A stretch of DNA of 64,000 nt from Naegleria gruberi (GCA_000004985.1 GG738846.1); one strand, 5' to 3'; positions 55,166-62,534 are shown, counted from the stretch's first letter. Numbers and translations: made by a program. Notes: generated from the letters alone by a model not told the origin.

Positions 55166-55795
55166 ATGTATAGTACAACAAATTCAGAGGAATTTTCCAA
55201 CAAGTTCCAACGATCTCTAGATGGTCCAAACAACCATAACATCTTTCCTAGACAATCCCCTTCCAATCATAATACGGATCCAAACTTGATGAGAACCACC
55301 CAATTGTTCCATTCAACAATTAATAGTAAATCAGTTACACTTCATAAGGGAACAGGTGGAGGTTTTCAAACAAACAATTTACCATTTCGCCCAACTGATA
55401 ATGAAATTCCTGTTCAACCAGTGACAAGATGGAGAGACAGACTCATTGATCCTAATTGCCATCCATCAGATTTGTCAATGTCTCAATCAGCATTTAATAA
55501 GAAGGCTAGTTTATACAAGGAGAAGGAACATGCAGATGTTTTGGTTGAGACTTTAAAGAAATCAGCAGGGTATCAATCAAAAGTTGAGGATGATCCTCTC
55601 TTATCATCACATCCAACAGGATACAAGAGCAATTTTAAATCAAAGAACATTGTATCTGGGCAGGATTACCCAGATCATGTTGACTTACCAACCAGACAGC
55701 ATGTTAGTGAAATGAAACAAAACTATACTTTTGGAGATCCTTATCAATTCAATTCATTTATGGACACTATTAAGAGTTCTAACGTAGAGTACTAA
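55166..55795 (+). CDS. Hypothetical hydrophilic protein (209 aa).
   Basis: Clean ORF with moderate codon bias. No recognisable family. Confidence 0.3.
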   Translation: MYSTTNSEEFSNKFQRSLDGPNNHNIFPRQSPSNHNTDPNLMRTTQLFHSTINSKSVTLHKGTGGGFQTNNLPFRPTDNEIPVQPVTRWRDRLIDPNCHPSDLSMSQSAFNKKASLYKEKEHADVLVETLKKSAGYQSKVEDDPLLSSHPTGYKSNFKSKNIVSGQDYPDHVDLPTRQHVSEMKQNYTFGDPYQFNSFMDTIKSSNVEY

Positions 55796-55989
55796 TCCTT
55801 AAAGGACTATCGAATCAGAAAAAATCATTGGATAATATCTAATGATTTACTTGATGATTCCTTGATTCCTTTTGAATTAAACTTGATTGTAAATAATCAC
55901 CACAATAAATAATTCGGAATTTTGTTTCACGTTCTCCGAATGTGGTTTATTGTTGGTGGGAACGTAAAATTGAAACGGTGTGAAAAAAA

Positions 55990-57362
55990 ATGTCATCTAT
56001 TGTATCCGCTATTACTCAACATTCTAATCAATTGTTAATCCTCGGCTTGGGTGCTGCTTTGGGTTTTGCTGTCTCAAAGACTTGTTGCACTAAAAAGTGT
56101 ACAAGAGGTACTGGAGCTTGTAAGTCTGCCACCACTACTCCATCATCATCAACAACAACAACAACAACTCCATCAACTCCATCATCATCAAAGGGTCCAG
56201 TTGTTGATTACTCCAAGAAGACCAAGGAAGAAATCATTGCTGAATTCAAACAAGTTTTCACTGAATTAAAGCAATTTGTTTTGGAAGATATCAAGGCTAA
56301 CTATGAAGTTCCAGAAGAAAATATCCAATATGTTGAAAGAGTAGGTATTTATATTATTCTCACAGTGTTATTTATCATCACACACTTTACATTAAAATAA
56401 CTACAACATAATTTAAATATATTTAGGTACTTGAATATAACGTTCCTCATGGTAAATTGAATCGTGGATTGGCTGTTGTTGATACTTTGTTGATTTTGAA
56501 TAATTATCAAATTTCTCAAGAAGATTTCAAGTTGGCTAGTATTTTGGGTTGGTGTATTGAATTCCTCCAAGCATTCTTCTTGATTGCTGATGATATTATG
56601 GATGCTAGTGTTACTAGACGTGGTCAACCTTGTTGGTATAAATTGAATGATGTCAAGATGACTGCTTGTAATGATTACTTGATTGTTGAATCTCAAATTT
56701 ACATTATTTTGAAGAAGTATTTCAAAAATGATTTATATGTACCACTCGTTGATTTGTTCCATCAAGTCAGTTATATGACTGAATTGGGTCAATTGCACGA
56801 TTTGAGATCTCTCCCACCAAACGTTGATAAGAATTCTTCTGATGAAATTCCATTCCATACTTTCACTATTGAAACTTATTCATTGATTGTCAAGTACAAG
56901 ACTGCTTTCTACAGTTTCTACTTGCCATTGTACTGTGGTTTGATTTTGAGTGGTAAATTGGATGAAAATATTAGAAAGCAAACTTTGGATATTTCAATTG
57001 CTATGGGTGAATACTTCCAAATTCAAGATGATTATTTGGATTGTTATGGTGATCCAGAACACATTGGTAAGATTGGTAGAGATATTGAAGATTGTAAATG
57101 TTCATGGATGGTTGTTAATGCTTTAAAGTTGGCCAATGAAGAACAATTGACTGTCCTCAAGTCTAACTATGGTAAGGAAGAACCAGAAAAGGTTAAATTG
57201 GTTAAGGAATTGTATGCTCAATTGAATTTGGAACAATTGTACAAGGATTATGAAAAGTCTGCTATTGAATCTATGAATCAATTGATTGCCAAGGTTCCAG
57301 AAGTTATCAATAAGGATATTTACAAGACATTGTTGTCTAAGATTGCTAATAGAACCAAGTAA
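55990..57362 (+). CDS. FPS: Farnesyl-diphosphate synthase, 2 exons (428 aa), with an N-terminal ~75-aa extension. The extension holds a hydrophobic anchor, a Cys cluster and a Thr/Ser-rich linker.
   Basis: Exon 1 is 55990..56340. The intron is 56341..56426 (GTAGGT..TAG, phase 0). Exon 2 is 56427..57362. The FPPS core aligns to human FDPS (EVLEYN..GKLNRGL, FLIADDIMDASVTRRGQPCWY, second Asp-rich motif DDYLD). The exon-1 C-terminal part aligns to the FPPS N-terminus. The preceding extension reads LLILGLGAALGFAVS, CCTKKCTRGTGAC, TTTPSSSTTTTTTPSTPSSS. The ATG is preceded by an in-frame TGA. Confidence 0.8.
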
Positions 57363-57437: not shown

Positions 57438-60400
57438 TTACACCTTATAACCAATTCTATTCTCCAACCACAAGTTTCTTGCCATTTCTGCAGATGGTCT
57501 TCTTTCATAATTCTTATCCAACATGATCATTACAAAATCAATAATGGCATTCACATCAATGGTTTGACCATTCACTATCACAGTATTATTATTACTTGGG
57601 GTAGCTAATAAGTTTTGACTACTTCCACTATTTGCACTGAGTGGCAAGTTACCAGCATTCAACGATTCCATAAAGGCCAAAGTCAATCTCTCTCTAATTT
57701 CCTTACCACCATTGAGGATAGAAATTCTTACAGTAGTTTGGAAATCTCTTGTTATCATGATATAAAATACACATCCCAATCCATAGATATCAGTTTTAGA
57801 TACATCTTTCACTTCACCAGCAAATAATTCTGGACTTTGGAACAATTCTGTACCAACAATACTTGTTTTTGTAATTACATTTTCAATATCTCCCTTTGCT
57901 AATCCAAAATCTGATAGAACAACATGATCTTGTGATTTTAAAAGGAAGTTTTCTGGTTTGATATCTCTGTGATAGACTTGTCTCTGATGAATATATTCAA
58001 TACTTGATAACATTTGTCGCATATAATTCAAAATTCTATTAATTGGTAAATTAGATTTCAAATTCAATAAATAAGATTGGAAATCACCCATTTCTAAAAA
58101 TGGCATTGTAAAACACCATTTTTCAAAATTACCAATATTAGTTTCAAATATTTCATAGACAGGTAAAATATTTTCATGATTCAATTTGGACATTTGAATA
58201 AATTCAACATTATTTCCCTCTTCTCTTGGTAAAATCTTCAAGGCAAGTATCTTTTTATCTTCACTCTGTAAATCACAAACTTTGAAAACACTTCCAAAAC
58301 CACCAAAACCAATCTTTTTCAATACTTCATATCTATTGATTAGAACATTCTTCTTGGTCTTTTTAACTTGATTTCCATTATTAGAAGTACTACTCTTCTT
58401 AATATTATTATACAATTTGACTAGATTTGAGATTTCTGTATTATCAGAGAGTGGTTTGATAAAGTAATTATAAATTAAATCTAGATTTGACTTTTCAAAT
58501 ATGAGTTTAAAGTATTCTTCAACATTTGGAATGGAGTTTTTGAGTTTTGGTAAAAGATTTGCATTAGAGAATAATCTAACATTGATAAAATCGGTCCACT
58601 TTTCATAAAATCTATTATGATTACCATTATAATTTGTAACTGACATTGGTAAAAAGTAAATATTAACAAATTTGGTATAGTCAATATTTGAAATTTCTTG
58701 TAAATAGTTTGCCATATACTCAAATATGGTAATCTTCATTTCAGTATCAAGTATTGTTGAAAATGATGCTAAACATAAACATTCCAAATAAATATTGGAA
58801 TTAAAATTATACTTTCTGATATATTTTAAAAATTCAAAAATATCCAACACTCTCTTCTTATGGAATGGTCTAAACATTTCAATTTCGGAAACCAATGGAT
58901 TGATACATTGTAATTTATCAAATTCTCCATTAAGTGTTGAATTAATCATACTTAATATAATGTTAATAGTTTCTTGATTATTTTCAGAGATGGAGAGCAT
59001 TTCTGTAAAGAGATTGTCATTATTACAAGACCAATAAATGATCAAGTAGAAGAATGTATAAATTTTCTTTCTTAATTCCATTGAATTGGTATATAATTGT
59101 TCACTCTTTGGTTTAGTTTCCATTTCTTTCAAATACTTTTTACAATCGGCCATTAATTGAATATCAGAGTTGAGTAAAATTGGACCAAATTGACAAAGTT
59201 GATAAAATAAATTAATAATAACTGGAGTACTCAACTCATTATTGACAATGATAGTATTTTCAAATAATCTACCAATTTGAACCAATAGTGGAATGTAATT
59301 CTTATCTTTCTGAATATTCTCCTTAATGAGAGGTATGGTAATTTTAATGAGAATAGAATTGATAAGATTAACATTAAATGTTTGGAAACATTTGGATTTG
59401 AGAATGTTTGAATATACATTGAATTTTTCAGTTTGTGAAATTTCAATTTCGAATAGGTTCTTTAAGAATGCTTCAAACTCTTCATAGGTCAGAATTTCAA
59501 ATAAAATATCAAATACAGAGACAGTGAGTGATTTCATCAAATTACCCTTCACAACAGCAACATTTGGTAAGTTGGTTGCATTGAGGTTTAGAATGAGTAG
59601 TAATTTAGAAACGAGTGAATTAAATTGTTCTTTAAATTCAATAATTTCTTTGGTTTGCTTTGTTTGCTTCTTCTTTTCCTGTTGGGAACTATTCTTCTTT
59701 TTCAACATGATCATAACAAGTGAGAATGATTGAATGGCATGATAAATAGTCTTGTAGTGGATTTCATTATTAGAAATTGAAGTAGAGTTATTCTTTGAAA
59801 TCATTGAGAGAGTATTTAACGATTCTTGTAATCTATCATTGAGATAGATTAAAACAGATTGATAAACTTTTTCATTAATTGGAATCTTGTAAATGATTTG
59901 TTCAAATAATAGTTCAGAATTTTTAAAATATTGACCAATGAAATAGAATAGAGATTCCAAAGTCTTCAATCGAATATGTGGATCATCAAAGTAAAATTCC
60001 AAAATTGAAAACAATGAAATGAATAACCCATTTGCATGTAAAACACATTCCTTATAGGTAATCTTCTTTTTTACAACTTCAATCAATTCAAGTATTGAAA
60101 TATTCTTGATAATGAATTGCTTCCACAGGAAGAATATTTGTAAATAGTTGTTATGCGGTATTGTTGAAATGAAGAATGTAAAACTCATTTTGATATTATT
60201 CTTTTCAGGTTTTGATTTCTTCAATTCAGGTAAAATACTTAAAATATTAGCTCTCGATGATAAATTACCATATAAAGTATTGGATGAATTCTTTTGTGGC
60301 TTGTATAGTTCAATAAGTTTCAATTTTTCAAAATTCATAATTGATTCATTATCTGTAAACTTGTAAAAACCAACAAGTGCTGGTTCATCTTCAATTTCAT

Positions 60401-62534
60401 ACTTATTTCCCCTGCTCGAATTGTTAATGTTATAAATATAGAGATATAGATATAAATTATCAAAACTCTCAACATTGGAAGCATCAATGTGAAAAGGTTC
60501 AAAGAATTTTGGATTTGTTTTTTTACAGAACAAGTAACTTGTATAGTGATAGGGTCCATCAATATTATCCATCAATTTACCAGATCTAATCTTGATTGGA
60601 TCATTTTCATTATTTCTATAAAGTGGAATAAATCTTCCCTCCTTTGTTTGATTATTCTTCACTTCAAATAATCGAATAACTACGAGTGGATTCTTGGATT
60701 TTATCATTGAAGATGAAAATGTAGCTCTATCCATTGATGGATAAATATCACATCTATTTTCTAAGAATGAATAATTGGTTCTAATTTCATTCTTTGTATT
60801 GATTGAAAACCAATTAATAGGTTTAGCTGTTGTAAGTCTTTGAAATTGTGGCTGATCATTTAAAATTATATCATAATCACCCTTATAAAATACAAAATTA
60901 ACATTTAACTGATCTTTCAATTGTTTACATTCAGTTCCAATTGTTTTGTAAGAGTAGAGTGAAGTTGGAGCACTCTGTACACTAGTTGTTGATAATTCAT
61001 TAATGAGAGATGTTAAAGTTGTGGAAGAACCTGCATTTGGTGAGCTAAGGGCTGATGAGGTAGAACCTGTTGTTATTGTTGTACTGGTGGTGGAACCTGA
61101 TGTGAATGGTGATAGTGTTGTTGATGCATTTGTTGTTGATATTGTTGTTGATGGAGCACTGCTGCCCATTAGAAGATTACCAAGTGAAGAGGCATTACTG
61201 GTGGAGGATGAATTTAAACCGAGAAGTTCACTCGAAGAGGATGGGTTATTTCCACCCATGATAGATCCCTTTCTTCCAATTGTATTGTTATTATGAGATG
61301 TTGTTGTTGTATTGTTATTACTATTTGAATTGTCACTAGTTGAAGAAGTATTCGAATCTTCATCTTCTAACAGATAGGTTGGTTTAACACTTAAACGTTT
61401 ACCAACATGTTGAGCAGCAATAACAGCATGTAACATTGTAAATTTCTTTTCATGAGTCTTTTCATAAAATTCACAAGATTTTGTTATGGATTGACCATTT
61501 GATAATTCTCTAATAGTATCATGATCGAATGGAATTGCACAAACAGCAAGAGGTCTCCTCAAGTGTGTAATATCTGAATCATCTTTTGCAGGATTGTAAT
61601 TATACATGAAATTTTGACTATTATTATCAATATTTGATAGTAAACTAGTAGAATTATTATTAGAAATTGATGTCTTTGTAATATTATACTTTTTAAAGGC
61701 TCTACCTATTAGAAATATATCATCCTTTAATAAATAGGATCCAGTAACATCTCTAAATAAACAAATTCTGTTTCTACCACTGTCAGATGAAATTGCTACA
61801 GTTTCCGATATAAATCTTGCTTCATTTAAACTATAAAGTGTAAAATCAATTTCAATATTTTCCTCACTCTGAGCAGAAAATATATGAAAATCAAAAACAA
61901 CCATCAATTGAAAAGTATCATTAATAGAAATGTTCAATTTCTTTGTACTTTCTTCCACATTATCCAAATCTGAATTTCCATCATTGACATTTAATGATGA
62001 TGATCCACTGCTATTGTTATTGGATGAAGAATTACCACTACCAATACTACCATTACTTGTATTGAGTGATGATGATGCTGATGCTGACGAGGTTGAATTT
62101 GATGAAGATCCAGCACCATTAGTATTCATCTTTTTAGATAGGGTATTCAAAACTTTATCTTTAAAGGAGAGACTCTTCTTCTTTTCATTGGTAGTACCAG
62201 CCCCCATTGGACTAGAAGAGGAGGGTGATGTTTGTTGTTGTTGTTGTTGTTGATGTTTGTTTCTCCTTCTTCTATAATTGAGTGTTACAAGTTTTAAATG
62301 TTGTTTATCATTGATAAATTCTTCAAGGAATGATCGACCATGATTAGTTTCATTCTCAATTTCATTGATGCTATCAATGATGGAAATATAGGGAGAAGTA
62401 GAATTATTTTCATTATTATTATTACTTGAATTGCTGAAACTTTGTCTCAGTGTGTTGTTATTGAAGGAGGAACCACCACTGCCACCAGTGTAGGATGGAA
62501 GTAAATGTGGTGAGGTTCCTGAGATCTTTCTCAT
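57438..62534 (-). CDS. Large (1698 aa) protein with a C-terminal Ser/Thr protein-kinase domain. The N-terminal ~1350 aa is low-complexity plus helical repeat.
   Basis: Kinase subdomains are present: GFGGFGSVFKV, ALKIL, HRDIKPENFLL, DFGLA, GTELFQSPE. The family is unassigned. Confidence 0.65.
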   Translation of the reverse strand: MRKISGTSPHLLPSYTGGSGGSSFNNNTLRQSFSNSSNNNNENNSTSPYISIIDSINEIENETNHGRSFLEEFINDKQHLKLVTLNYRRRRNKHQQQQQQQTSPSSSSPMGAGTTNEKKKSLSFKDKVLNTLSKKMNTNGAGSSSNSTSSASASSSLNTSNGSIGSGNSSSNNNSSGSSSLNVNDGNSDLDNVEESTKKLNISINDTFQLMVVFDFHIFSAQSEENIEIDFTLYSLNEARFISETVAISSDSGRNRICLFRDVTGSYLLKDDIFLIGRAFKKYNITKTSISNNNSTSLLSNIDNNSQNFMYNYNPAKDDSDITHLRRPLAVCAIPFDHDTIRELSNGQSITKSCEFYEKTHEKKFTMLHAVIAAQHVGKRLSVKPTYLLEDEDSNTSSTSDNSNSNNNTTTTSHNNNTIGRKGSIMGGNNPSSSSELLGLNSSSTSNASSLGNLLMGSSAPSTTISTTNASTTLSPFTSGSTTSTTITTGSTSSALSSPNAGSSTTLTSLINELSTTSVQSAPTSLYSYKTIGTECKQLKDQLNVNFVFYKGDYDIILNDQPQFQRLTTAKPINWFSINTKNEIRTNYSFLENRCDIYPSMDRATFSSSMIKSKNPLVVIRLFEVKNNQTKEGRFIPLYRNNENDPIKIRSGKLMDNIDGPYHYTSYLFCKKTNPKFFEPFHIDASNVESFDNLYLYLYIYNINNSSRGNKYEIEDEPALVGFYKFTDNESIMNFEKLKLIELYKPQKNSSNTLYGNLSSRANILSILPELKKSKPEKNNIKMSFTFFISTIPHNNYLQIFFLWKQFIIKNISILELIEVVKKKITYKECVLHANGLFISLFSILEFYFDDPHIRLKTLESLFYFIGQYFKNSELLFEQIIYKIPINEKVYQSVLIYLNDRLQESLNTLSMISKNNSTSISNNEIHYKTIYHAIQSFSLVMIMLKKKNSSQQEKKKQTKQTKEIIEFKEQFNSLVSKLLLILNLNATNLPNVAVVKGNLMKSLTVSVFDILFEILTYEEFEAFLKNLFEIEISQTEKFNVYSNILKSKCFQTFNVNLINSILIKITIPLIKENIQKDKNYIPLLVQIGRLFENTIIVNNELSTPVIINLFYQLCQFGPILLNSDIQLMADCKKYLKEMETKPKSEQLYTNSMELRKKIYTFFYLIIYWSCNNDNLFTEMLSISENNQETINIILSMINSTLNGEFDKLQCINPLVSEIEMFRPFHKKRVLDIFEFLKYIRKYNFNSNIYLECLCLASFSTILDTEMKITIFEYMANYLQEISNIDYTKFVNIYFLPMSVTNYNGNHNRFYEKWTDFINVRLFSNANLLPKLKNSIPNVEEYFKLIFEKSNLDLIYNYFIKPLSDNTEISNLVKLYNNIKKSSTSNNGNQVKKTKKNVLINRYEVLKKIGFGGFGSVFKVCDLQSEDKKILALKILPREEGNNVEFIQMSKLNHENILPVYEIFETNIGNFEKWCFTMPFLEMGDFQSYLLNLKSNLPINRILNYMRQMLSSIEYIHQRQVYHRDIKPENFLLKSQDHVVLSDFGLAKGDIENVITKTSIVGTELFQSPELFAGEVKDVSKTDIYGLGCVFYIMITRDFQTTVRISILNGGKEIRERLTLAFMESLNAGNLPLSANSGSSQNLLATPSNNNTVIVNGQTIDVNAIIDFVMIMLDKNYERRPSAEMARNLWLENRIGYKV

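What the first reader, a model, noticed from the sequence alone, without database searches (positions are those of the whole stretch)
55990..56340. FPP synthase carries an N-terminal membrane-anchor / Cys-cluster / poly-Thr extension
Exon 1 encodes about 75 residues before the conserved FPPS N-terminus. These comprise a hydrophobic segment (LLILGLGAALGFAVS), a Cys cluster (CCTKKCTRGTGAC) and a Thr/Ser-rich linker (TTTPSSSTTTTTTPSTPSSS). The exon is strongly codon-optimised along its whole length, so it is coding rather than UTR. FPPS is normally soluble, so a tethered form would be unusual. It would suggest isoprenoid synthesis localised at a membrane, for example a flagellar, ER or organelle membrane, or a lipidated enzyme.
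Basis: partly seen in the sequence, partly recalled or inferred. Interest (0 to 1): 0.55.

Follow-up and report, generated by a model that had tools for sequence, protein, structure and literature searches.

The report
Membrane-anchored farnesyl diphosphate synthase in Naegleria
The Naegleria gruberi gene for farnesyl diphosphate synthase, normally a soluble enzyme, really does encode an extra N-terminal hydrophobic anchor, cysteine cluster and threonine-rich spacer; related amoebae share the anchor, and published fractionation data place the protein with mitochondria rather than in the cytosol.

Summary
The window is Naegleria gruberi. Exon 1 (55990-56340) joins exon 2 (56427-57362) across an 86-nt GT..AG intron and gives a 428-aa canonical FPPS preceded by about 70 extra residues. 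These are a 15-residue Gly/Ala-rich apolar segment, a basic/Cys cluster and a Thr/Ser/Pro linker.

No other in-frame ATG lies upstream of the catalytic core, and a TGA sits two codons before the start. The public NCBI model is exon 2 only. The identical 428-aa sequence already appears in the supplement of Horvathova et al. 2021, where the protein falls in the putative mitochondrial proteome.

The hydrophobic segment, a basic C-flank and usually juxtamembrane Cys recur in two other Naegleria species, Willaertia, Acrasis, Percolomonas and unnamed relatives. Similar one- to three-segment extensions occur in ochrophyte algae. The poly-Thr tract and two of the four Cys are specific to N. gruberi.

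Most likely this is an uncleaved N-terminal signal-anchor that holds a standard FPPS dimer on the cytosolic face of an organelle membrane, either the mitochondrial outer membrane or closely associated ER. Topology, membrane identity and lipidation are inferred, not shown. It is a little-described variant of a well-known enzyme, of moderate interest.

The parts
55980..55989 (+). GTGAAAAAAA immediately upstream of the start codon; it contains the in-frame stop TGA at 55981-55983 that bounds the ORF
   Evidence: A similar G-T-G-A(n) motif lies upstream of the ATG in L001 (672-682) and L004 (2904-2914).
55990..56340 (+). Exon 1 (117 codons): the extension plus FPPS helices alpha1 and most of alpha2
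   Evidence: It is missing from the public NCBI model P0001, which is 310 aa and marked 'partial'.
55990..56031 (+). aa 1-14 MSSIVSAITQHSNQ: short, uncharged pre-anchor N-terminus with no K or R
56032..56076 (+). aa 15-29 LLILGLGAALGFAVS: Gly/Ala-rich apolar segment with small-xxx-small motifs; the proposed membrane anchor
   Evidence: Mean Kyte-Doolittle hydropathy 2.26, the highest 15-mer in the protein. Reached by 35/20000 shuffles. An equivalent segment is present in 10/10 heterolobosean-type relatives.
56077..56124 (+). aa 30-45 KTCCTKKCTRGTGACK: basic, Cys-rich juxtamembrane cluster (C32, C33, C37, C44; five K/R)
   Evidence: The CC pair is conserved in three Naegleria species. Cys is enriched at this position across the clade: 16/170 residues against a 2.7% background.
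56125..56190 (+). aa 46-67 SATTTPSSSTTTTTTPSTPSSS: Thr/Ser/Pro spacer specific to N. gruberi; it includes a (CAA)6 microsatellite at 56150-56168
   Evidence: tandem repeat; absent from orthologues; pLDDT below 50.
56191..56340 (+). aa 68-117: start of the conserved FPPS fold (KGPVVDYSKK..., helix 79-104, helix 109-122 crossing the junction)
56341..56426 (+). Intron, 86 nt, GTAGGT...TTTAG, phase 0; its position is conserved in Naegleria and Willaertia
56427..57362 (+). Exon 2 (aa 118-428 plus TAA): FPPS catalytic core, equal to the public partial model
56589..56603 (+). First Asp-rich motif DDIMD (D172-D176), preceded by F167 and F168
   Evidence: Invariant columns.
57027..57041 (+). Second Asp-rich motif DDYLD (D318-D322)
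   Evidence: Invariant columns.

Best explanation
The first ~70 codons are translated and form an uncleaved N-terminal signal-anchor. A short uncharged N-terminus is followed by a moderately hydrophobic, Gly/Ala-rich helix that inserts into an organelle membrane with the N-terminus on the far side. A basic, Cys-rich juxtamembrane stretch stays on the cytosolic side and is a candidate S-acylation site. A disordered Thr/Ser/Pro spacer then connects to a catalytically standard, dimeric type-I FPPS that faces the cytosol. Because no downstream start codon exists, every molecule is made in the tethered form. Published gradient proteomics put the protein in the mitochondrion-type cluster, so the most likely site is the mitochondrial outer membrane, or ER tightly associated with it. 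There FPP would be released next to membrane-bound consumers such as squalene synthase and heme/ubiquinone prenylation. Shown: gene structure, coding status, FPPS identity, conservation of the anchor, expression and organelle co-fractionation. Inferred: membrane integration, topology, which membrane, lipidation and any channelling role.
For: Gene model and start. The identical curated 428-aa sequence is listed under XP_002682719.1. Coding; the ORF stays open and the intron keeps its position in four species; dN/dS is about 0.25-0.6 in the extension. FPPS identity: Pfam PF00348 at 246 bits, E=3.7e-94 to solved FPPS, both Asp-rich motifs invariant, F167/F168 and R426/K428 present, AF2 pTM 0.82. 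Anchor: the apolar segment has 0-1 K/R on the N side and +2 to +5 on the C side in all 11 sequences examined, which by the charge-difference rule predicts N-terminus out and C-terminus cytosolic. No PTS2 was found and there are 0-1 K/R in the first 12 residues. Cys is enriched beside the segment, p about 1.5e-5. Conservation: three Naegleria species, Willaertia, Acrasis, Percolomonas and P0008/9/10/12. Experiment (PMC8134430, Supplementary Data 2, Sheet 1): 17 unique peptides, 61.6% coverage, log2 LFQ 27.26 / 28.65 / 30.42 across OPT-1015 / 1520 / 2023. The protein was assigned to the 946-protein putative mitochondrial cluster, not the peroxisomal one. TargetP and MultiLoc run on the full sequence call it 'S', meaning a signal-peptide or anchor-like N-terminus.
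Against: The uncharged apolar core is only 15 residues, short for a bilayer span. My approximate insertion energies are near zero for the 15-mer but positive for 19-mers (the scale values were recalled from memory). AlphaFold gives no confident helix there. No dedicated TM or signal-peptide predictor could be run here. The proteomic search probably used the partial model (listed mass 35.9 kDa), so no peptide from the extension is documented. Co-fractionation cannot separate outer membrane, an imported protein and co-sedimenting ER; squalene monooxygenase and squalene synthase sit in the same cluster. The extension lacks acidic residues and is S/T-rich, which also resembles import presequences. 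Willaertia and P0009 lack the Cys. One clade member (P0011) appears complete without an anchor.
Confidence: 0.6

Rival explanations
1. The extension is a non-canonical mitochondrial import signal, either a presequence or a presequence plus stop-transfer. The enzyme then ends up inside the mitochondrion, either anchored in the inner membrane or released into the intermembrane space or matrix after cleavage, like the mitochondrial FPPS isoforms of plants, insects and Toxoplasma.
For: The protein falls in the mitochondrial cluster. The extension has no D/E in 72 residues, a net charge of +6 and is S/T-rich. The authors of PMC8134430 note that heterolobosean targeting sequences are long and missed by predictors. 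HMG-CoA synthase and reductase in the same table carry predicted mitochondrial signals.
Against: There is no K/R in the first 29 residues, unlike the N. gruberi presequences visible in the same table, which are basic from positions 2-10. All basic residues lie after the hydrophobic segment in all homologues. TargetP and MultiLoc give 'S', not 'M'.
Confidence: 0.2
2. The hydrophobic segment is a cleavable ER signal peptide. The enzyme is then luminal or secreted, with an O-glycosylated, disulfide-bonded mucin-like stalk.
For: TargetP S65 and MultiLoc S84 on the full sequence. A-V-S before K30 fits the -3/-1 cleavage rule. There is a sub-threshold Pfam 'New_glue' match (17.3 bits against a cut-off of 31). 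The Thr/Ser/Pro tract resembles mucin linkers.
Against: A cluster of basic residues directly after the segment disfavours translocation of the C-terminal side. No conserved cleavage motif is present in the orthologues. The mucin-like tract is absent from the other species. IPP and DMAPP are cytosolic substrates (established knowledge). The protein behaves like mitochondrial markers on gradients.
Confidence: 0.07
3. The anchor targets the ER membrane, in the manner of a microsomal P450, and the mitochondrial assignment reflects co-purifying ER or mitochondria-associated membranes.
For: The layout of N-terminal anchor, basic stop and flexible hinge matches microsomal P450s (own knowledge). The ER-type sterol enzymes squalene synthase and squalene monooxygenase share the same cluster. 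A diatom FPPS (HoPTS1) is reported as probably located in the ER membrane. Juxtamembrane Cys acylation is typical of the secretory pathway (own knowledge).
Against: Classic ER markers (Sec61, calreticulin, PDI, OST) were not found in the readable part of the mitochondrial table, though 344 rows were cut when the file was stored. The segment is only moderately hydrophobic and Gly/Ala-rich, more like Tom20/Tom70-type anchors (comparator sequences were recalled from memory).
Confidence: 0.12
4. The extension is not translated, because it is 5' UTR, a gene-model artefact, or part of the upstream gene.
For: The public NCBI/JGI model omits exon 1. No peptide from the extension is documented.
Against: There is no alternative in-frame ATG before the essential helices alpha1-alpha2. 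The upstream gene ends with its own stop at 55795. The frame-specific coding signal equals that of exon 2. The ORF, its architecture and the intron position are conserved in four species. Full-length annotated proteins with the same N-terminus exist in N. lovaniensis, Willaertia, Acrasis and Percolomonas.
Confidence: 0.01

Closest known systems
Canonical soluble type-I eukaryotic FPPS (avian 1FPS, human FDPS, yeast Erg20, trypanosomatid FPPS structures)
   Same: The whole catalytic fold from residue 77 onward aligns, with E down to 3.7e-94. Both DDxxD motifs, the F-F pair before the first motif and the C-terminal R-x-K are present.
   Different: No solved FPPS has a counterpart of residues 1-76. 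The fungal, green-plant and animal FPPS among the 120 best hits have no hydrophobic N-terminal segment.
Diatom FPPS HoPTS1 (Haslea ostrearia) and other ochrophyte FPPS (Nannochloropsis, Dinobryon)
   Same: [quoted passage not shown] Nannochloropsis sequences have one, and Dinobryon-type sequences three, N-terminal hydrophobic segments before the core.
   Different: They form a separate clade in a rough NJ tree. They have no CC motif, and many have three segments. Homology of these anchors with the heterolobosean one is not established.
Dictyostelium discoideum FDPS (peroxisomal, N-terminal PTS2)
   Same: The targeting information sits in a short N-terminal extension of an otherwise standard FPPS (PMC3465988).
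   Different: That signal is a soluble-matrix PTS2 nonapeptide. No PTS2 pattern is present in any heterolobosean sequence, and the N. gruberi protein was not in the peroxisomal cluster.
Mitochondrial FPPS isoforms with N-terminal presequences (Arabidopsis FPS1L, insects, Toxoplasma; own knowledge, and the supplement's note 'in plant mitochondria')
   Same: An N-terminal extension and association with mitochondria.
   Different: Those are basic amphipathic presequences for import. Here the N-terminus is uncharged and hydrophobic, and the basic residues come only after it.
N-terminal signal-anchored proteins: mitochondrial outer-membrane Tom20/Tom70/OM45 and microsomal cytochrome P450s (a comparison of mechanism, not of homology)
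   Same: A short N-terminus, one moderately hydrophobic Gly/Ala-rich segment, a basic C-flank, then a linker and a cytosolic domain (comparator sequences recalled from memory).
   Different: There is no sequence homology. Membrane integration and topology of the FPPS are untested.

Membership tests
Type-I trans-farnesyl diphosphate synthase (Pfam PF00348 polyprenyl_synt) | Significant match to the family profile over the whole domain | tested here: met
   246.3 bits against a cut-off of 27, residues 113-382. phmmer E=3.7e-94 to PDB 7bux FPS2 and E about 1e-79 to human FPPS chains.
Type-I trans-farnesyl diphosphate synthase (Pfam PF00348 polyprenyl_synt) | First and second Asp-rich motifs (DDxxD) | tested here: met
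   D172, D173, D176 and D318, D319, D322 are invariant in a 40-sequence alignment.
Type-I trans-farnesyl diphosphate synthase (Pfam PF00348 polyprenyl_synt) | Aromatic residues at positions -5 and -4 before the first Asp-rich motif, which limit the product to C15 | tested here: met
   AFFLIADD has F167 and F168. That these residues set chain length is established knowledge.
Type-I trans-farnesyl diphosphate synthase (Pfam PF00348 polyprenyl_synt) | All-helical prenyltransferase fold with a basic C-terminal tail | tested here: met
   AF2 pTM 0.82 and pLDDT above 90 from about residue 70, all helices. R426 is invariant and K428 nearly invariant.
Type-I trans-farnesyl diphosphate synthase (Pfam PF00348 polyprenyl_synt) | Produces FPP from IPP and DMAPP/GPP | not testable with these tools
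   This needs a recombinant enzyme assay.
N-terminal signal-anchored membrane protein (N-terminus out, C-terminus cytosolic) | A single apolar segment near the N-terminus long enough to span a bilayer | tested here: inconclusive
   The uncharged apolar core is 15 residues (aa 15-29). It is the best 15-mer in the protein and its approximate insertion energy is about -0.6 kcal/mol, but 19-mers are positive. No dedicated predictor was available, and AF2 is uninformative.
N-terminal signal-anchored membrane protein (N-terminus out, C-terminus cytosolic) | More positive charge on the C-terminal flank than on the N-terminal flank | tested here: met
   N flank 0-1 K/R, C flank +2 to +5 in 11/11 sequences.
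N-terminal signal-anchored membrane protein (N-terminus out, C-terminus cytosolic) | Sediments with an organelle or membrane rather than the cytosol | tested here: met
   Literature evidence: enriched about 9-fold from the lightest to the densest OptiPrep sub-fraction and clustered with mitochondrial markers (PMC8134430 Supplementary Data 2).
N-terminal signal-anchored membrane protein (N-terminus out, C-terminus cytosolic) | Integral (carbonate-resistant), uncleaved, with a protease-accessible catalytic domain | not testable with these tools
   This needs biochemical fractionation.
FPPS with a mitochondrial matrix-targeting presequence | A basic, amphipathic N-terminal presequence recognised as mitochondrial | tested here: not met
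   No K/R in aa 1-29. TargetP and MultiLoc best class is 'S' on the full sequence in PMC8134430. PsortII gives a mitochondrial score of only 39.
Peroxisomal FPPS (PTS2 type, Dictyostelium) | N-terminal nonapeptide (R/K)(L/V/I/Q)xx(L/V/I/H/Q)(L/S/G/A/K)x(H/Q)(L/A/F) | tested here: not met
   The regular expression is absent from all 10 heterolobosean-type N-termini. The protein is not in the peroxisomal cluster.
S-acylated (palmitoylated) juxtamembrane cysteine motif | Cys within about 10 residues of the cytosolic end of the membrane segment, conserved | tested here: met
   The CC pair is conserved in three Naegleria species. Cys is present in 8/10 clade members, 16/170 residues against a 2.7% background. 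The sequences are related, so the p-value is only indicative.
S-acylated (palmitoylated) juxtamembrane cysteine motif | Thioester-linked fatty acid on these Cys | not testable with these tools
   This needs acyl-biotin exchange or click-palmitate labelling.

The most novel reading that the evidence does not exclude
Obligate membrane tethering of FPPS is an old trait. It would be ancestral to Heterolobosea and possibly share an origin with the one- to three-helix anchors of ochrophyte algae. In Naegleria the tethered FPPS would be one component of a mevalonate/early-sterol assembly organised on or in mitochondria: HMG-CoA synthase, HMG-CoA reductase, FPPS, squalene synthase and squalene monooxygenase all co-fractionate with the organelle. 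Mitochondria rather than bulk ER/cytosol would then be the hub of isoprenoid precursor supply in this lineage, as partly seen in kinetoplastids.
Probability: 0.2. Interest if true: 0.7.

Novelty: new variant of a known kind. Interest (0 to 1): 0.45.

Why it matters
Where FPPS sits in the cell (cytosol, peroxisome or mitochondrion) has long been disputed, and FPPS is normally treated as soluble. Here a whole protist lineage, which includes the relatives of the brain pathogen N. fowleri, appears to make only a tethered form. That gives a natural system for asking whether anchoring FPP synthesis at a membrane channels flux to sterols, ubiquinone/heme prenylation or protein prenylation. It also matters for drug work, since bisphosphonates target FPPS. 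Practically, it corrects the truncated public gene model, which would mislead any localisation prediction or expression construct.

Tried and rejected
No 428-aa N. gruberi entry appeared among the homologue hits either.

(2) AlphaFold2 with a 40-sequence alignment gave no confident structure for residues 1-62, so it neither supports nor refutes a helix.

(3) Pfam found no domain in the extension. The 'New_glue' match is below the cut-off and reflects composition.

(4) PTS2 and classical presequence readings were tested and rejected.

(5) Literature searches for a described membrane-anchored FPPS or for Naegleria FPPS localisation found only the Dictyostelium PTS2 case and a one-line statement on diatom HoPTS1. 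The original diatom paper is not held, and the Rhizosolenia FPPS paper does not mention the N-terminus.

(6) Cluster look-ups gave organism names for almost none of the unnamed anchor-bearing relatives, so the taxonomic spread beyond Heterolobosea, Nannochloropsis and Dinobryon is unresolved.

(7) I searched the proteome table for ER markers to judge ER contamination. None was found, but 344 rows were cut in the stored copy, so this is inconclusive.

(8) dN/dS for the extension (0.25-0.6) shows weaker constraint than in the core. Synonymous sites are near saturation, so this is only supportive.

Full report
**Organism and gene.** The window is AT-rich eukaryotic DNA, about 32% GC. The exon-2 product is 100% identical to "predicted protein, partial [Naegleria gruberi]" (P0001, 310 aa). 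The public model therefore lacks the very exon the finding is about.

**Observation.** An ORF opens at ATG 55990. It is bounded two codons upstream by an in-frame TGA (55981-55983) and runs to 56340 (...YVER). An 86-nt GTAGGT...TTTAG intron follows, and exon 2 runs 56427-57362 with a TAA stop.
- The spliced product is 428 aa.
- Residues 15-29 (LLILGLGAALGFAVS) are the most hydrophobic 15-mer in the protein.
- Residues 30-45 hold five K/R and four Cys.
- Residues 46-67 are 21/22 Ser/Thr/Pro.
- Each of these three features is more segregated than in shuffles of the same 72 residues: 35, 283 and 0 of 20000 shuffles respectively.
- The poly-Thr run is encoded partly by a perfect (CAA)6 microsatellite.

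**It is coding, and it is part of the FPPS gene.**
- A codon-usage log-odds score trained on 22 other long ORFs of the window gives 0.41 bits/codon for the extension in the annotated frame. Exon 2 scores 0.47, while the intron and the upstream spacer score negative. The other five frames are lower for the extension as a whole; the margin is small for the short Cys and poly-Thr sub-segments.
- Exon 1 also encodes FPPS helices alpha1 and alpha2. The AlphaFold2 model has a helix at 109-122 that crosses the junction at 117/118.
- Exon 1 has no second Met, and the first internal Met is in the DDIMD motif. The tethered form is therefore the only product possible from this exon.
- The upstream gene (55166-55795) ends with its own stop.

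**Orthologues.**
- N. lovaniensis (L004), a third Naegleria species recovered from a genomic Logan assembly (L001) and Willaertia magna (L005) all have the same phase-0 intron after "..ER". All have an exon 1 starting with M, then a short uncharged stretch, a Gly/Ala-rich apolar segment, K/KK and a linker.
- Synteny is kept: an unknown gene of about 205 aa lies upstream and a protein kinase lies downstream on the minus strand.
- dN/dS is about 0.25-0.6 in the extension and 0.08-0.2 in the adjoining FPPS segment. The extension is constrained, but loosely, as expected for an anchor plus spacer.
- The poly-Thr/Ser tract and two of the four Cys are an N. gruberi-specific insertion.

**Family identity.**
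- Pfam PF00348 scores 246 bits.
- The best solved relatives are plant, avian, human and trypanosomatid FPPS, with E from 3.7e-94 to 1e-67. All align from query residue 77 or later.
- Both DDxxD motifs, F167/F168 before the first motif and the C-terminal R426-x-K428 are present.
- AF2 gives pTM 0.82, with pLDDT above 90 from about residue 70 and below 50 for residues 1-62.
- Nothing suggests a neofunctionalised enzyme.

**Distribution of the anchor.**
- Among the 120 best homologues, about 47 have 75 or more residues before the GGK(L)NRG motif, and 35 pass a strict test for at least one uncharged hydrophobic 15-mer there.
- In a rough NJ tree of the catalytic domains these sequences fall into two clades.
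  - One is a heterolobosean-type clade: Naegleria, Willaertia, Acrasis, Percolomonas and the unnamed P0008/9/10/12. Most apparent exceptions are truncated models; P0011 looks complete without an anchor.
  - The other is an ochrophyte-type clade: Nannochloropsis with one segment, and Dinobryon and many unnamed sequences with three.
- The fungal, green-plant and animal sequences have none.
- In all 11 heterolobosean-type and Nannochloropsis sequences examined, the N flank has 0-1 K/R and the C flank +2 to +5.
- Cys is enriched within -5 to +12 of the end of the segment: 16/170 residues against a 2.7% background, present in 8 of 10 sequences. The CC pair is conserved in all three Naegleria species.
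- Small-xxx-small motifs are common in the segment. This fits helix-helix pairing in a homodimeric enzyme, which is an inference.

**Experimental evidence from the literature.** Horvathova et al. 2021 (PMC8134430) fractionated N. gruberi on OptiPrep gradients. [quoted passage not shown]
- Supplementary Data 2, Sheet 1 (mitochondrial) lists XP_002682719.1 with a SEQUENCE field that is the full MSSIVSAITQHSNQLLILGLGAALGFAVSK...YVERVLEYNVPHGK... protein. As far as that field is shown (the stored copy cuts it near residue 393), it is identical to the model derived here. The listed mass of 35.9 kDa is that of the partial model.
- The entry records 17 unique peptides and 61.6% coverage.
- Log2 intensities are 27.26, 28.65 and 30.42 in the 10-15, 15-20 and 20-30% fractions, the densest being the most mitochondrial.
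- TargetP and MultiLoc best class is 'S'.
- The paper does not discuss the protein.
- The same sheet contains HMG-CoA synthase, HMG-CoA reductase, squalene synthase and squalene monooxygenase.

**Mechanism.**
- The simplest reading is an uncleaved N-terminal signal-anchor with the N-terminus translocated and the catalytic domain in the cytosol. This follows the charge-difference rule, which is established knowledge.
- It would work like Tom20/Tom70/OM45 on the mitochondrial outer membrane or like microsomal P450 anchors on the ER.
- The moderate hydrophobicity and Gly/Ala richness, together with the fractionation data, favour the outer mitochondrial membrane. ER that co-purifies with mitochondria is not excluded.
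- The juxtamembrane Cys are candidates for S-acylation.
- The Thr/Ser/Pro tract is a flexible spacer that expanded by triplet-repeat slippage in N. gruberi.

**Rivals.**
- An atypical import presequence or stop-transfer signal. In favour: the extension has no acidic residues and is S/T-rich, and heterolobosean presequences escape predictors. Against: no basic residue occurs before the hydrophobic segment.
- A cleavable signal peptide with a mucin-like stalk. Against: the basic cluster after the segment, the absence of a conserved cleavage site, cytosolic substrates, and the gradient behaviour.
- A non-translated artefact. This is effectively refuted.

**Comparison with known systems.**
- It is a bona fide type-I FPPS.
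- N-terminal extensions that relocate FPPS are known. Dictyostelium uses a PTS2 (PMC3465988). Plants, insects and Toxoplasma use mitochondrial presequences (own knowledge). A diatom FPPS is said to be probably in the ER membrane (PMC9033121).
- The heterolobosean form fails the PTS2 and presequence tests. It resembles the diatom/ochrophyte situation in kind but lies in a different clade.
- I found no paper that describes or tests a transmembrane anchor on FPPS in Naegleria or any heterolobosean.

**Verdict.**
- It is a poorly described variant (tethered, apparently obligate and lineage-wide) of a very well known enzyme.
- The corrected sequence and its organelle association are already in a published supplement, but without comment.
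- Interest is moderate (0.45).
- The main open points are integration, topology, which membrane, processing and acylation.

Noticed in passing
window 56427-57362 versus 55990-57362: The public N. gruberi protein model (P0001 / XP_002682719.1, 'partial', 310 aa) starts at the second residue of exon 2 and lacks exon 1 entirely. A third Naegleria assembly has the same error: its model P0003 reads through the intron as 'MIIIITKNILHYTHIIDYMKKK'.
   Followed up: yes
PMC8134430 Supplementary Data 2, Sheet 1 (not in the window): HMG-CoA synthase, HMG-CoA reductase, squalene synthase and squalene monooxygenase of N. gruberi are all assigned to the putative mitochondrial proteome together with FPPS. This suggests either a mitochondria-associated early sterol pathway or a specific co-purifying membrane.
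   Followed up: partly
proteins P0047 (Dinobryon), P0049, P0051, P0056, P0057, P0072, P0073, P0108, P0109 and others: A large clade of FPPS of 470-480 aa carries about 170 extra N-terminal residues with three hydrophobic segments, the last ending in a recurrent ...YFGGAMY motif. Acrasis has CYFGGK at the equivalent place. Whether these anchors are homologous to the heterolobosean single segment is unknown.
   Followed up: partly
L005 / P0004 (Willaertia magna), alignment A1 columns 281-300: Willaertia FPPS lacks the juxtamembrane Cys. Instead it has a 16-residue Cys/Lys-rich insertion (SCKKACEKVCAGKQQA) in a surface loop of the catalytic domain.
   Followed up: no
window 55930-55938 and 55980-55989; L001 629-637 and 672-682; L004 2904-2914: Short motifs are conserved upstream of the start codon between Naegleria species: CGTTCTCCG, then 43-50 nt later GTGAAAAAAA. 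These are possible core-promoter or transcription-start elements.
   Followed up: no
window 55940-56041: An out-of-frame ATG at 55940 opens a 33-codon upstream ORF that overlaps the FPPS start codon. It matters only if transcription starts upstream of it.
   Followed up: no
window 57438-62534 (- strand): The convergent neighbour is a 1698-aa protein with a C-terminal protein-kinase domain and long Ser/Asn/Thr low-complexity tracts. A kinase occupies the same position in N. lovaniensis and the third Naegleria species, so synteny is conserved.
   Followed up: partly
window 55166-55795 (+ strand): The upstream 209-aa ORF has no Pfam match. A gene of similar size (204 aa, no Pfam) occupies the same position in N. 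lovaniensis.
   Followed up: partly
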